Sequence record: OQ870568.1 | From: Escherichia phage Zappy | DNA: 40,562 nt | Reading direction: 5' to 3' (one strand) | In this document: positions 1-40,562 of the stretch, piece by piece | Position numbering within the stretch: the first letter of the stretch is position 1 | How the letters are laid out: each line of letters begins with the position of its first letter | The notes under the pieces: generated by a model | Seen by the model: only the letters and a program-made list of their open reading frames with translations | The model's database searches: none | What the model was told of the DNA's origin: nothing | Made by a program: the position numbers and the translations under genes

Positions 1-77
1 ACTACAGGCTCTGTTTTCTTCTCCCCATTAGAAGTAACAATAGGGTTGCTTCCGAGATATGCAGTTGTGAAACGGTT
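1..77. repeat. Terminal duplication, identical to 40486..40562 (overlap of a circularised contig)
   Basis: Direct comparison of the first 77 and last 77 bases: exact match. Confidence 0.9.
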
Positions 78-2489
78 ACTTGGTCCACCAAGCGCAATGA
101 CGTTATCGTGATAAGGCTTAACGTCAGCAGTCTGGAACAGATGCTCATTACCATTGTAAACTATTCGCTTTGAGTCGGTGTTATTTGCACCATAAAGCGT
201 AATCTGTGCGCCAGTCGTTGAACTAGTGCCTTCACCTCCGCAAAATATGGTGCGCTGCCCTGCCGGGTTATCAGTCGGTATAGATTTCCCGATAAACCCA
301 TATTCACCTTCCATTAAAACTTCAGAGCGAATGTTACTACTGGTGCTGGCTCTAATAGTCACATGACCTAAACCCAAATCCCCTGTAAATTCCATTGGCG
401 CAGGAACAGTGCGAATCCCATTCGTATCAAAAAACACGGGAACAGCTCTGTTAGGTACAGCACCATACCTGAAATCCCTAGAAACACGATTGTCTGGGCC
501 AATCTTCATTTTGTAGCAATACAAATCTGAGGGATGACCATCTGATTTGAATGGGTCCTTCGCTGAGTTATCTCCATAGGTCCATGGGTTAAAATGGTCC
601 TCTCCACCAAATATGTAGTAGATGTAATTATCCTTCACAACTACCGAACCAACACCTACACCTGAGTTAACTATTCCGCCCTGATAAATCTGGTCAGTGA
701 TGTTAACCCATTCAATATCATCTGCATTCCAATTGTTTACATTCAAGCGTGCATAGAAGGTGCGAGGATAAGATGCCTTGTAACGATCATCTGGTGCACC
801 TGCTTCCCATTCATTTTCTGCACGTTCCGAACCAAACATAATAAGGTCATCCCCTACTTTAGCAAAAGGCAATGTAGTATGATGAACATTATGTGGAAAT
901 CTCAGTGACTCCCAAGTCTGACCTATGTCTCTACTACGATGCAAAGAGCTACCTAGTCTATCCCCACGAGTGCCACGAGTGATAAGGTATAATACACCAT
1001 CATAGTACTTGATGCAAGGCTCTGCCGCATCTGGTTCATACTCAGATGGTATCTGACGACGAACATAATTAGATGGGCTATTGAAAGCATCAGGGAAGTA
1101 GAAAAGCCCAACTTCTCGTGGAGCTACATCACCTTGATGACAGCCCATAACAAAGCCATTGTTATCAATAGTAGCAAAGCTATGGACTTCAGTAACACGA
1201 GGGATTAAGCCAAGATCTGTTTTACGCCATGGAGACTTATGGAAGGAAGTACCCATATGCCAGTTCTTTCCAGCGTTATTCAAATCTGAAGTCTGCTGGT
1301 TTGGTGTAAGAACCGTGAAGTTGTCCTTATCTATTACGGTTGCAACAGTCATATTACCGGAGACACCTGTTACCGCAGAATTAGAGAAGTTAACAAAATC
1401 ACCCACGAATAGTCCGTGGTCTGGTACATGTATTGTTGCATATGGCTGATTTGCAGCTTTAGTGATACCACCAGTAAGATGCAGGCTACGAGACATGGGG
1501 CGATCCCACAATGCACAATTGGTTAATGCGTTCTTGGCTAAAGTACGTGTTTCAATCATGGCAAACAGACGGTTGCGACATACACCCATACTCATACAAT
1601 GATAGTTCACTGTAGGGTAATCTGGATGCAGATCAGTTAACCACTCTGGAGTAGACCATGTTTGACCATCATCACCAGACTTAACCCATGATACATGCAG
1701 ACGACTAACACCATGACGATCGCTACCCATGTAAGGTGCATATATCACATTATCATATACGAACGCTTTATCCTGAGGCCACGCATTGTAATAAGGGGTG
1801 TCCGTTATTTTGAACAACTCACCCTGAACAAATTCCTCAGAGACATAATAAAGAGGTTGTCCCGGAATGCGCTCATAAACGAAACGAGTGTTGATGAAGC
1901 GACTAATGTCAGGCAGGGATGTGACCTTATATGTCTTCCCATTGCCATTAATCTTTTGTCCAACCGGTGTGTCATTTAATACGCGCGTTAACGCTTCTGT
2001 ATCATCAGTGACACCGTCCCCTTTAGCATCCCAACCACGAAGATCAGGCCAGCGTGCCCAGAAACTCGCAACTATTCGGCGTGCTTCGTCCTCGCTATCC
2101 TTAGCGTTGCCAGCAGAGCTACCAGCAGCATCGGCATATTCCTTTGCTAAGTCAACCGTTTGGTCTCGACCTTCTTCTGCAATATGGATAGCCTGAAGCT
2201 CTGAATTGGTCAGGTCACTAGCTGTCAACACTGAGCCATTCCTGAAGTCTACCACTAAGTCAGTTCCAGTCTGACGGTGAATACGAACGATGTCGAAACC
2301 TGATTGGTCAGCCAACATCTCAATCATCGTTGGATTAAGGAATCGGTAATCTCGACCAACTTCCAGTACACGGTTCAGAGCAGGGTTAGAGCTATTCACC
2401 AGCGTAACAACAACAAACGTTCTGGCTAGGTAGTCGAACTCAATCCTGTACTGAGTGTTTCCTGACGGGAATTGTGTAATCGTGGACAT
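1..2489 (-). CDS. 17: Tail fibre/tailspike gp17, N-terminal ~830 codons; the ORF runs off the window start and continues in frame into 40053..40485
   Basis: ATG at 2489 with AAGGAGG 4 nt upstream. Hand translation [30 protein letters not shown] matches the T7 gp17 N-terminal adaptor domain. Downstream [11 protein letters not shown] (about 1995-2020) and Asp-box SGDDGQTW (about 1650-1676). No minus-strand stop reported before position 1; frame is continuous across the 77-bp duplicate. Confidence 0.85.
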
Positions 2490-2535
2490 TATGCCTCCTT
2501 TGTGATTTAAGCGGAGACCTATGGTAGCGCCTCCA

Positions 2536-2558
2536 GTTTCCTATAGTGATAGTTTAGT
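2536..2558 (-). promoter_or_regulatory. Phage RNAP promoter (phi17-like), minus-strand sequence ACTAAACTATCACTATAGGAAAC
   Basis: Matches the 23-bp motif found 11 times in this genome; sits between the gp16 stop and the tail fibre start. Confidence 0.7.
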
Positions 2559-14222: not shown

Positions 14223-14245
14223 TCTCCCTATAGTGATAGTTTAGT
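14223..14245 (-). promoter_or_regulatory. Phage RNAP promoter (phi10-like), ACTAAACTATCACTATAGGGAGA
   Basis: Positions -7 to +6 identical to the T7 consensus; immediately after the scaffold stop and upstream of the capsid gene. Confidence 0.8.
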
Positions 14246-15209: not shown

Positions 15210-15232
15210 AGTTCCTATAGTGATAGTTTAGG
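15210..15232 (-). promoter_or_regulatory. Phage RNAP promoter (phi9-like), CCTAAACTATCACTATAGGAACT
   Basis: Motif match; overlaps the portal stop codon, upstream of the scaffold gene. Confidence 0.7.
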
Positions 15233-18030: not shown

Positions 18031-18053
18031 AGTCCCTATAGTGATAGTTTAGT
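18031..18053 (-). promoter_or_regulatory. Phage RNAP promoter (phi6.5-like), ACTAAACTATCACTATAGGGACT
   Basis: Motif match; intergenic between exonuclease and the gp6.5-like gene. Confidence 0.75.
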
Positions 18054-27541: not shown

Positions 27542-27564
27542 ATGTCCTACAGTGATAGTTTAGG
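27542..27564 (-). promoter_or_regulatory. Phage RNAP promoter (phi2.5-like), CCTAAACTATCACTGTAGGACAT (one mismatch at -3)
   Basis: Motif match; overlaps the gp2 stop, upstream of the SSB gene. Confidence 0.6.
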
Positions 27565-28517: not shown

Positions 28518-28540
28518 TTGTCCTATAGTGATAGCTTAGG
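28518..28540 (-). promoter_or_regulatory. Phage RNAP promoter (phi1.5/1.6-like), CCTAAGCTATCACTATAGGACAA
   Basis: Motif match with one change at -12. Confidence 0.65.
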
Positions 28541-30584: not shown

Positions 30585-30607
30585 TAATCCTATAGTGATA
30601 GTTTAGG
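30585..30607 (-). promoter_or_regulatory. Phage RNAP promoter (phi1.1-like), CCTAAACTATCACTATAGGATTA
   Basis: Motif match; first promoter downstream of the RNAP gene, as for T7 phi1.1A. Confidence 0.75.
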
Positions 30608-33651: not shown

Positions 33652-33674
33652 GAGTCCTATAGTGATAGTTAAGT
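33652..33674 (-). promoter_or_regulatory. Phage RNAP promoter located 75 bp upstream of the RNAP gene itself, ACTTAACTATCACTATAGGACTC
   Basis: Motif match; lies between the stop of the 86-aa early ORF (33680) and the RNAP ATG (33582). Confidence 0.7.
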
Positions 33675-35373: not shown

Positions 35374-35848
35374 GTAGGACGTAATGTTATACTATAACAC
35401 TATACAGATAGAGACTCAAAGAAGACCTATAGCCCCTACCTATCGTCCTTCCCTAAGCCATAGCCTAGACCTATCGTTGACCTGAAGTCTTTACCATCGG
35501 TCCAACCTTATGATAGACTGGCTGTGACTGCAAGGAGCAGTAACGGGTAGGGCCTTTGGTCTGGACTTAAAGAGGGCCTATGGGGAGACTTGAGGTTCTT
35601 GAACTGTGAGATGTGGTCTCAAACTTTTGGTCCAAAACTCATCGTCACTACTGTAGGCCACAGCCACTGTAGGCCAAGGACCGTAGGTCAGGCGACACTA
35701 GGATAGACCAATAAGTAGGATGACCCTAAGTGAGCTTCTCTTAAGGTGTTACCTAAAGTCCTTGACTGCAGTAGCTAAGGTCAGTAGAGTAGCGTCAGCT
35801 ATGAACTGACCTTAGGTCTTCCGCTCATGAATCGTTACCATGATTGCG

Positions 35849-40052: not shown

Positions 40053-40562
40053 TTACTTCTGTTCAAGAGCAGAAAGTCTGGCTTCGATTCTTTCCAGTTT
40101 TCTTCTCTGATAGGCGGCTTCAGCAAAGAAAATTCCGTCAGGCCGAACACCCCACTCCTCACCCCCTTCATGGATAACCACCTCAGTGAATACAGGTTCT
40201 TCCGTAGTAGTGACATTACCCTCCTCGTCAGTGTGTTCAATGATTTCATTGTGCGAAAATACCGTATCGGTCATCCGTGGATACTTGTCATAGCACAGAA
40301 CGGCATAACGACAATTCGTACTGTTTTCATCCATCAGACCGTGTGCAATGAATACATCACGAATTTGCTGAGCAATAACCCCGAAGTGAATACGAGCATC
40401 ATTGCCTTTCAGCTGAACAGCATCTAACCATTGATACATGATGTAGTGAACGTCACCCCAGGCATCTAGGAAAGCATCATCAAAAACTACAGGCTCTGTT
40501 TTCTTCTCCCCATTAGAAGTAACAATAGGGTTGCTTCCGAGATATGCAGTTGTGAAACGGTT
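40053..40562 (-). CDS. 17: Tail fibre/tailspike gp17, C-terminal part (same gene as 1..2489; 40486..40562 duplicates 1..77)
   Basis: ORF track 40053..40439; frame stays open upstream to the window end and is the same frame as the ORF at the window start; ends in a predicted coiled-coil (RRKLERIEARLSALEQK). Confidence 0.8.
   Translation of the reverse strand, partial: NRFTTAYLGSNPIVTSNGEKKTEPVVFDDAFLDAWGDVHYIMYQWLDAVQLKGNDARIHFGVIAQQIRDVFIAHGLMDENSTNCRYAVLCYDKYPRMTDTVFSHNEIIEHTDEEGNVTTTEEPVFTEVVIHEGGEEWGVRPDGIFFAEAAYQRRKLERIEARLSALEQK
40486..40562. repeat. Terminal duplication, identical to 1..77
   Basis: Exact match to the window start. Confidence 0.9.

What the first reader, a model, noticed from the sequence alone, without database searches (positions are those of the whole stretch)
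1..2489. Tailspike with a T7-type adaptor and an Asp-box glycosidase body, split across the contig ends
The gene (about 973 codons, 2489..1 continuing into 40485..40053) starts with a T7 gp17-like N-terminal domain. It then carries [11 protein letters not shown] and at least one Asp-box (SGDDGQTW), hallmarks of sialidase-like or related glycosidase folds, and ends in a coiled-coil module. This architecture suggests a capsule-degrading tailspike, possibly an endosialidase as in K1-capsule-specific T7-like phages. Automated annotation of the linear contig would miss or truncate it.
Basis: partly seen in the sequence, partly recalled or inferred. Interest (0 to 1): 0.6.

Follow-up and report, generated by a model that had tools for sequence, protein, structure and literature searches.

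The report
K1F-type endosialidase tailspike, neck domain missing
The gene split across the contig ends is the well-known capsule-degrading tailspike (endosialidase) of K1F-like phages that infect K1-encapsulated E. coli. It is ordinary except that it lacks a 91-residue "neck" domain present in nearly all its relatives.

Summary
The window is a circularly closed assembly: bases 1..77 equal 40486..40562, giving a 40,485-bp unit. A 973-codon ORF with no stops runs on the minus strand from 2489 to 1 and on through 40485 to 40053.

The protein is an ortholog of phage K1F gp17 (endoNF), about 97% identical to crystal structures 1V0E/3GVL/3GW6. It has a T7-type anchor, the endosialidase cap, a beta-propeller with a beta-barrel insert, a stalk, and a C-terminal S74 self-cleaving chaperone. 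Every literature-defined catalytic, polysialic-acid-binding and autocleavage residue checked is conserved. The genome is a Kayfunavirus, closest to phage SR04.

All 27 GenBank K1F-type records that cover the junction query carry this domain. The same neck-less junction occurs in one other, diverged protein (P0132, 973 aa, 97.3% identical). So the deletion is a real natural lineage and not an artefact of this contig.

There is also a private Tyr-to-Cys change at an invariant position (K1F Y541).

Verdict: a new member of a very well characterised family, of low to moderate interest.

The parts
1..2489 (-). Gene 17 (tailspike), 5' part: codons 1-829 plus the first 2 nt of codon 830
   Evidence: Open frame with no stops; joins in frame to 40485
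40053..40485 (-). Gene 17, 3' part: third nt of codon 830 through codon 973, plus the stop codon (40055..40053)
   Evidence: Joined ORF of 973 aa. On the linear contig only a 128-aa ORF (40053..40439) is callable
40486..40562 (.). 77-bp duplicate of bases 1..77 (assembler overlap from a circular or terminally redundant assembly); not biological
   Evidence: Exact terminal direct repeat. The SR04 GenBank record has the same artefact at the same position
2536..2556 (-). Phage-RNA-polymerase promoter-like site TAAACTATCACTATAGGAAAC, upstream of gene 17 and overlapping the gene 16 stop codon
   Evidence: 8 related sites, all on the minus strand, against 0 expected by chance
2494..2499 (-). Shine-Dalgarno AGGAGG, 4 nt upstream of the ATG
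   Evidence: Read directly from the sequence
2073..2489 (-). T7 gp17-type anchor (aa 1-139): tail-binding domain plus a long helix
   Evidence: PF03906, aa 10-115; 9VVR_A residues 1-143, E=1.5e-91; AF2 model shows helix 95-146 (low confidence)
2028..2072 (-). Neck-less junction (aa 140-154, [15 protein letters not shown]). About 273 nt encoding the PF18668 neck domain and linker are missing here relative to K1F
   Evidence: Alignments; PF18668 present in K1F 156-211 and absent here at E<=10; the same junction occurs in P0132
1827..2027 (-). Endosialidase N-terminal cap (aa 155-221), containing [11 protein letters not shown]
   Evidence: PF12218, E=2.4e-38; AF2 pLDDT 84-94
501..1826 (-). Six-bladed beta-propeller catalytic domain (aa 222-663). 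Contains two Asp-boxes and catalytic residues H259, R458, E490, R505, R556 (K1F H350, R549, E581, R596, R647)
   Evidence: PF12217, E=4e-221; residue mapping; residue roles from PMC12632334
1245..1493 (-). Beta-barrel (lectin-like polysialic-acid-binding) domain inserted in the propeller (aa 333-415)
   Evidence: PF12195, E=5.5e-47
1140..1142 (-). Codon TGT = Cys450, replacing a Tyr (K1F Y541) that is invariant in all homologs compared
33..494 (-). Tail-spike stalk with the second polysialic-acid site (aa 666-819). R746, S757, Q762 correspond to K1F R837, S848, Q853 (roles recalled from memory, not verified in a paper read here); R806 corresponds to K1F R897, which PMC8326128 reports as crucial for autocleavage
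   Evidence: PF12219, E=6e-79; residue mapping
30..32 (-). Ser820 (K1F Ser911): autoproteolytic cleavage site. The dyad partner Lys825 (K1F K916) lies 5 residues downstream
   Evidence: Mapping; dyad defined in PMC8326128
1..29 (-). Start of the C-terminal intramolecular chaperone domain (aa 821-973), which continues at 40485..40056
   Evidence: PF13884, aa 823-880; 3GW6 covers aa 699-973, E=6e-181

Best explanation
This is gene 17 of a Kayfunavirus (K1F-like, T7-supergroup podophage). It encodes the homotrimeric tailspike endosialidase.

Mechanism, transferred from K1F by about 97% identity. The N-terminal anchor (aa 1-139) plugs six trimers onto the tail. The beta-propeller hydrolyses the alpha-2,8-polysialic acid K1 capsule of E. 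coli, while the beta-barrel and stalk sites hold the polymer, so the virion tunnels through the capsule. During folding, the C-terminal chaperone domain (aa 821-973) nucleates trimerisation of the stalk. It then cuts itself off at Ser820 using a Ser820/Lys825 dyad.

The gene appears split only because the assembler circularised the genome and opened it inside gene 17.

Unlike K1F, this allele fuses the anchor helix almost directly to the enzyme cap. The roughly 91-aa PF18668 neck domain and its linker are deleted. The deletion is a heritable natural variant that most likely still gives a working spike.

Shown here: the ORF, domain architecture, residue conservation, the deletion, and its presence in a second diverged sequence. 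Inferred: enzymatic activity, K1 specificity, self-cleavage, and viability without the neck.
For: The ORF and the circular join are established. Six Pfam domains occur in K1F order. Aa 154-819 match 1V0E/3GVL at about 97% identity and aa 699-973 match 3GW6. The protein is 96-97% identical to gp17 of K1F and more than 20 K1F-like phages, several isolated on K1 strains. The rest of the window is 93-97% identical to Kayfunavirus genomes, and no second large receptor-binding gene is present. Every functional residue checked is conserved: K1F H350, R549, E581, R596, R647, Q330, K585, N699, R837, S848, Q853, R866, R897, S911, N912, K916, G956, D994. Residue roles come from PMC12632334, PMC8326128 and PMC3742443, except R837, S848 and Q853, whose stalk-binding role I recalled from memory.

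The neck deletion is shown. The same junction occurs in P0132 (973 aa, two Logan contigs up to 39.7 kb), which differs from the window protein at 26 positions with no gaps. Engineered direct anchor-to-enzyme fusions in K1F and KP32 scaffolds are infectious (PMC13352976). K1E/K1-5-type endosialidases naturally lack this neck (P0020).
Against: No wet-lab data exist for this allele. Cys450 replaces a Tyr that is invariant in all 20 homologs compared, down to 50% identity, and in P0132. This could impair the enzyme or be a sequencing error. The neck is present in all 27 GenBank K1F-type records that cover the junction query and in essentially all listed Kayfunavirus tailspikes, so its loss may carry a fitness cost. 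The AF2 model of the junction is low confidence.
Confidence: 0.9

Rival explanations
1. The 91-residue deletion is an artefact (misassembly, or a minority or defective deletion mutant picked up by the assembler), and the real phage carries the canonical 1064-aa gp17.
For: None of the phage records matched by the junction-spanning query, and no IMG/VR, JGI metagenome or GTDB genome contig, holds the junction. The contig is clearly an unpolished assembler output with its 77-bp overlap left in.
Against: An independent, diverged protein (P0132, 26 substitutions) has the identical junction and length. The junction is in frame. It involves two separate gaps (264 + 9 nt) plus lineage-specific substitutions shared with P0132 (F143, W144, P148, L150, D154, E165). 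The long-form allele has no repeat longer than 16 nt flanking the segment that could collapse at k=77.
Confidence: 0.05
2. The gene is intact but the spike is enzymatically or structurally crippled, through Y541C and/or loss of the neck. The sequence would then represent a poorly fit or decaying variant, not a working K1 phage.
For: Tyr at K1F position 541 is invariant in every homolog compared. Deep mutational scanning shows the K1F tailspike is generally intolerant to substitution (PMC12632334). The neck is almost universally retained.
Against: The complete 973-codon ORF has all known functional residues intact. A complete, otherwise normal roughly 40.5-kb genome was assembled, which implies abundant replicating phage. 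The neck-less lineage has persisted long enough to diverge by 2.7%. P0132 shows that Cys450 is not tied to the deletion.
Confidence: 0.08
3. The enzyme has shifted specificity to a different polysaccharide: not alpha-2,8-polysialic acid, or only modified or O-acetylated forms or K92.
For: There are 33 substitutions relative to K1F, some in the stalk (I838T, R865K, D872N, S878T, N885H, T889I). The DMS study describes the stalk as a 'tuning knob' for host discrimination (PMC12632334).
Against: All active-site and binding-site residues checked are identical. Most substitutions are shared with other K1F-like phages isolated on K1 hosts. The enzyme body is about 97% identical to K1F.
Confidence: 0.03

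Closest known systems
Phage K1F gp17 / endoNF (endo-N-acetylneuraminidase, GH58; PDB 1V0E, 3GVJ-L, 3JU4, 3GW6)
   Same: Same gene position (between gene 16 and the holin gene 17.5) and the same T7-type anchor. The cap, propeller, barrel, stalk and S74 chaperone are the same. Aligned residues are 96.6% identical, and all functional residues are conserved.
   Different: 973 aa against 1064 aa. K1F residues ~144-234 (the PF18668 neck plus linker) are absent and the junction is remodelled ([15 protein letters not shown]). There are 33 substitutions, including Y541C.
P0132, an unnamed 973-aa protein from Logan assemblies (contigs up to 39,690 bp)
   Same: Identical length and the same neck-less junction; 947 of 973 residues identical with no gaps. 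It belongs to the same lineage of short-form K1F-type tailspikes.
   Different: 26 substitutions; it has Tyr at the K1F-541 position and A140 instead of V140. Its genomic context could not be retrieved.
K1E / K1-5-type endosialidase (811 aa; e.g. P0020, phage vB_EcoP_C)
   Same: Homologous enzyme body (about 71-76% identity). It also lacks a PF18668 neck.
   Different: It has no T7-type anchor. According to PMC6872550, it docks through an N-terminal undecapeptide onto a separate adaptor protein. Its C-terminal chaperone region is divergent.
Other Kayfunavirus tailspikes (e.g. the 843-aa spike of ZG49-like phages, PDB 9VVR)
   Same: Near-identical anchor, aa 1-143.
   Different: They carry the PF18668 neck followed by unrelated bodies. 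This shows that the seam after the neck is the usual swap point, and the window's allele has lost the neck that lies just upstream of that seam.
Neck domain of CBA120 TSP1/3/4 and G7C-type tailspikes (PF18668; PDB 4OJ5, 5W6F, 5W6H, 4QNL)
   Same: Homologous to the K1F segment that is missing here.
   Different: It is not present in the window's protein at all.

Membership tests
Bacteriophage endosialidase (endo-N-acetylneuraminidase, K1F endoNF type) | Catalytic six-bladed beta-propeller domain | tested here: met
   PF12217, aa 222-663, E=4.1e-221, full profile coverage; about 97% identical to 1V0E/3GVL
Bacteriophage endosialidase (endo-N-acetylneuraminidase, K1F endoNF type) | Active-site residues H350, R549, E581, R596, R647 (K1F numbering; PMC12632334) | tested here: met
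   H259, R458, E490, R505, R556 are all conserved
Bacteriophage endosialidase (endo-N-acetylneuraminidase, K1F endoNF type) | Beta-barrel insertion, tail-spike stalk domain and N-terminal cap | tested here: met
   PF12195 E=5.5e-47; PF12219 E=6.2e-79; PF12218 E=2.4e-38
Bacteriophage endosialidase (endo-N-acetylneuraminidase, K1F endoNF type) | Sialidase Asp-box motifs (S-x-D-x-G-x-x-W) | tested here: met
   SGDDGQTW at 271 and SRDIGQTW at 519
Bacteriophage endosialidase (endo-N-acetylneuraminidase, K1F endoNF type) | Hydrolysis of alpha-2,8-polysialic acid; K1-capsule-dependent infection | not testable with these tools
   Inferred from about 97% identity to the biochemically characterised K1F enzyme
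Peptidase S74 / intramolecular chaperone auto-processing (ICA) domain | Domain present at the C-terminus | tested here: met
   PF13884, aa 823-880, E=4.7e-9; 3GW6 aligned over aa 699-973, E=5.7e-181
Peptidase S74 / intramolecular chaperone auto-processing (ICA) domain | Ser-Lys catalytic dyad (K1F S911/K916), R897, and essential residues N912 and G956 (PMC8326128, PMC3742443) | tested here: met
   S820, K825, R806, N821, G865 are conserved
Peptidase S74 / intramolecular chaperone auto-processing (ICA) domain | Actual autoproteolytic release of the C-terminal domain | not testable with these tools
   Requires protein expression and SDS-PAGE or mass spectrometry
T7 gp17-type tail anchor | N-terminal Phage_T7_tail domain | tested here: met
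   PF03906, aa 10-115, E=2.9e-16; matches T7 gp17 in 7BOZ and the Kayfunavirus spike 9VVR
Canonical Kayfunavirus tailspike architecture (anchor + PF18668 neck + variable body) | PF18668 Tail_spike_N neck domain between the anchor and the body | tested here: not met
   No PF18668 hit at E<=10 in aa 1-220, whereas K1F gives E=1.4e-19 at residues 156-211. The alignment shows about 91 residues missing
Kayfunavirus (K1F-like) genome | Genome-wide nucleotide similarity and T7-like gene order | tested here: met
   93-100% coverage at 93-97% identity to SR04, UFJF_EcSW4, phiHAO2-2, vB_EcoP_F and others. Gene 16 lies upstream; holin, small terminase and Rz genes lie downstream

The most novel reading that the evidence does not exclude
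A naturally circulating lineage of K1F-like phages carries a 'neck-less' endosialidase tailspike. The PF18668 neck is widely shared among tailspikes and lies just upstream of the seam where receptor-binding bodies are usually exchanged. In this lineage it has been excised and the junction remodelled (FW...P..L..D). If the spike works, the neck is dispensable for virion assembly and K1 infection. Its loss might also change spike reach or geometry, or reduce further exchange of the receptor-binding body.
Probability: 0.75. Interest if true: 0.3.

Novelty: new member of a known kind. Interest (0 to 1): 0.22.

Why it matters
For annotation, the result is practical. The phage's host-range determinant would be lost from any annotation of the linear contig, as has already happened in a public GenBank record (SR04). 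The contig should be reverse-complemented and restarted near window position 35611, and the 77-bp duplicate removed.

Biologically, the phage can be predicted with high confidence to target K1-encapsulated E. coli, which cause neonatal meningitis, urinary tract infection and avian colibacillosis. That is relevant to phage therapy and to endosialidase reagents for polysialic acid research.

The neck-less architecture is a small natural experiment. It suggests that the PF18668 neck domain is not required between a T7-type anchor and an endosialidase body, which is useful for engineering minimal chimeric tailspikes. It is not a new type of system.

Tried and rejected
1. Exact 29-mer across the junction in IMG/VR, JGI metagenomes and GTDB genomes: 0 hits. 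A degenerate 20-mer gave 0 viral hits and 16 metagenome hits, all chance matches with no tailspike homology by tblastn.

2. A junction-spanning 100-aa query against IMG/VR: 37 related loci, none contiguous across the junction.

4. Repeat-mediated assembly collapse as the cause of the deletion: rejected, because only imperfect repeats of 16 nt or less flank the region in K1F. An exact 9-nt repeat GATGCTGCT spaced exactly 273 nt apart was found. However, its positions (codons 120 and 211) do not match the observed breakpoints, so it is a coincidence.

5. A simple recent clean deletion: rejected, because the junction has two gaps (264 + 9 nt) and several flanking substitutions. These are shared with P0132, so they are lineage-specific and not sequencing errors.

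6. P0130 (983 aa) and P0131 (976 aa) looked like possible short forms by length. In fact they have different, non-T7 N-termini that retain the neck.

7. AF2 model of aa 1-330: mean pLDDT 63, a monomer of an obligate trimer with a truncated propeller. It is too weak for fold searching and was used only descriptively.

8. Literature searches for a defined role of PF18668 in K1F found nothing specific.

Full report
**Observation.** Translating the reverse strand of window 2489..1 gives 829 codons without a stop. The window ends in an exact 77-bp copy of its first 77 bases, 1..77 = 40486..40562. This is the signature of an assembler k-mer overlap on a circular graph. After removing the duplicate (unit length 40,485 bp), the frame continues through 40485 to a stop at 40055..40053. 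On the linear contig only the internal 128-aa ORF 40053..40439 is callable at the far end. A second Asp-box, SRDIGQTW, lies at aa 519-526. A phage-RNA-polymerase promoter-like site, TAAACTATCACTATAGGAAAC (2556..2536), and an AGGAGG ribosome-binding site precede the ATG.

**What it is.** Pfam finds six domains in the order known for phage K1F gp17:
- Phage_T7_tail, aa 10-115
- End_N_terminal, aa 155-221
- End_beta_propel, aa 222-663 (E=4e-221), with End_beta_barrel inserted at aa 333-415
- End_tail_spike, aa 666-819
- Peptidase_S74, aa 823-880

Against the PDB, aa 154-819 align end to end with the K1F endosialidase crystal structures 1V0E/3GVL at about 97% identity. Residues 699-973 align with 3GW6, the stalk plus C-terminal chaperone. 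In the phage collection the protein is 96-97% identical to gp17 of K1F and more than 20 K1F-like phages, several isolated on K1 strains. The rest of the window is a Kayfunavirus genome. It is 93-97% identical over 93-100% of its length to SR04, UFJF_EcSW4, phiHAO2-2 and vB_EcoP_F. Gene 16 lies upstream, the holin, small terminase and Rz genes lie downstream, and there is no second large receptor-binding gene.

**Functional residues.** The literature defines the catalytic residues H350, R549, E581, R596 and R647, and further critical residues Q330, K585, N699, R866 and D994 (PMC12632334). It also defines the autocleavage dyad S911/K916 with R897, and the essential residues N912 and G956 (PMC8326128, PMC3742443). 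All are conserved here at positions shifted by 91. So are R837, S848 and Q853, whose role as stalk binding residues I recalled from memory and did not verify in a paper.

**Likely mechanism.** The mechanism is therefore that of K1F endoNF. The trimeric spike is anchored to the tail by its T7-type N-terminus. The propeller cleaves alpha-2,8-polysialic acid. The C-terminal domain chaperones folding of the stalk and then removes itself at Ser820.

K1F gp17 and all close relatives are 1064 aa; this protein is 973 aa. Alignment shows that K1F residues ~144-234 are absent and the junction reads [23 protein letters not shown]. In K1F that segment is the Pfam PF18668 Tail_spike_N domain (residues 156-211, E=1.4e-19). 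The window's protein gives no PF18668 hit even at E<=10. The missing module is homologous to the neck domain that precedes the catalytic body in CBA120 TSP1/3/4, G7C-type spikes and the Kayfunavirus spike 9VVR.

All 27 GenBank records that cover a junction-spanning query carry the extra 273 nt. Essentially every Kayfunavirus tailspike listed from the 5.8-billion-protein collection has PF18668. The junction was not found in IMG/VR, JGI metagenomes or GTDB genomes.

**Is the deletion real?** At the DNA level the event is not a clean single deletion. There are two gaps (264 and 9 nt) and a cluster of flanking substitutions. No repeat longer than 16 nt flanks the segment in the long allele, which argues against k-mer collapse during assembly.

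The decisive evidence came from the 90% cluster of K1F-type proteins. It contains one member, P0132, that is also 973 aa. It was recorded on two Logan contigs of up to 39.7 kb and has the same junction ([31 protein letters not shown]). It differs from the window's protein at 26 positions with no gaps. The neck-less form is therefore a real, heritable and already diverged natural lineage. Residues that first looked private to the window (A37, A60, F143, P148, D154, E165) are lineage markers shared with P0132.

A working spike without the neck is plausible for two reasons. Engineered direct anchor-to-enzyme fusions in K1F and KP32 scaffolds are infectious (PMC13352976). K1E/K1-5-type endosialidases naturally lack this domain (PMC6872550). 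A low-confidence AF2 monomer model (mean pLDDT 63) shows one long helix, 95-146, running through the junction into a confidently folded cap at 155-221.

**Remaining oddity.** Cys450 (codon TGT, window 1142..1140) replaces a Tyr (K1F Y541). That Tyr is invariant in all 20 homologs compared, down to 50% identity, and in P0132. It may be a sequencing error, a private polymorphism or a mildly deleterious change. Only reads or biochemistry can tell.

**Annotation point.** The closest genome, phage SR04 (GenBank OQ870567.1), starts at the same nucleotide and keeps the same 77-bp duplicate. It has no CDS over gene 17, only a 128-aa 'hypothetical protein' fragment. The K1F 178-bp terminal repeat maps to window ~35411..35611 on the minus strand. 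The contig should therefore be reverse-complemented and started near 35611.

**Verdict.** The object is a new allele of one of the best-characterised phage tailspikes. Its one modestly interesting twist is a rare, natural, neck-less architecture, which has precedents in engineered spikes and in other endosialidase chassis. I rate it as a new member of a known kind, of low to moderate interest.

Noticed in passing
window 1..77 and 40486..40562; GenBank OQ870567.1 (L003/L004): The 77-bp assembler overlap has been left in the contig. The public SR04 record starts at the same nucleotide, keeps the same 77-bp duplicate, and lacks any annotation of gene 17.
   Followed up: yes
window 1140..1142 (minus strand), codon 450 of gene 17: TGT (Cys) replaces a Tyr (K1F Y541) that is invariant in all 20 endosialidases compared and in the other short-form protein P0132. 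It could be a sequencing error or a private, possibly deleterious, variant.
   Followed up: partly
window ~35411..35611 (minus strand): The K1F 178-bp direct terminal repeat maps here as a single collapsed copy. These are the likely physical genome ends, so the true genome would be about 40.7 kb and should start near 35611 on the reverse strand.
   Followed up: partly
window 2536..2556, 14223..14243, 15210..15230, 18031..18051, 27542..27562, 28518..28538, 30585..30605, 33652..33672 (all minus strand): Eight phage-RNA-polymerase promoter-like sites with the core TAAACTATCACTATAGG, against 0 expected by chance. One lies directly upstream of gene 17 and overlaps the stop codon of gene 16.
   Followed up: partly
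GenBank PV615262.1 (hit H25): A record named 'Acinetobacter phage vB_Aba_01KA' (host A. baumannii) carries a K1F-type endosialidase at 90% identity, split into two CDS, within a Kayfunavirus backbone. The host label looks doubtful.
   Followed up: no
protein P0002 (1167 aa): This K1F-type neck plus endosialidase body sits on a different, longer T7-like anchor with an extended coiled coil. It shows the neck and body moving together between chassis, in contrast to the neck-less allele in the window.
   Followed up: no
L001 (K1F) 1858-1866 and 2131-2139: An exact 9-nt direct repeat GATGCTGCT is spaced exactly 273 nt apart, the same as the total deletion size. Its positions do not match the observed breakpoints, so it was judged a coincidence.
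   Followed up: yes
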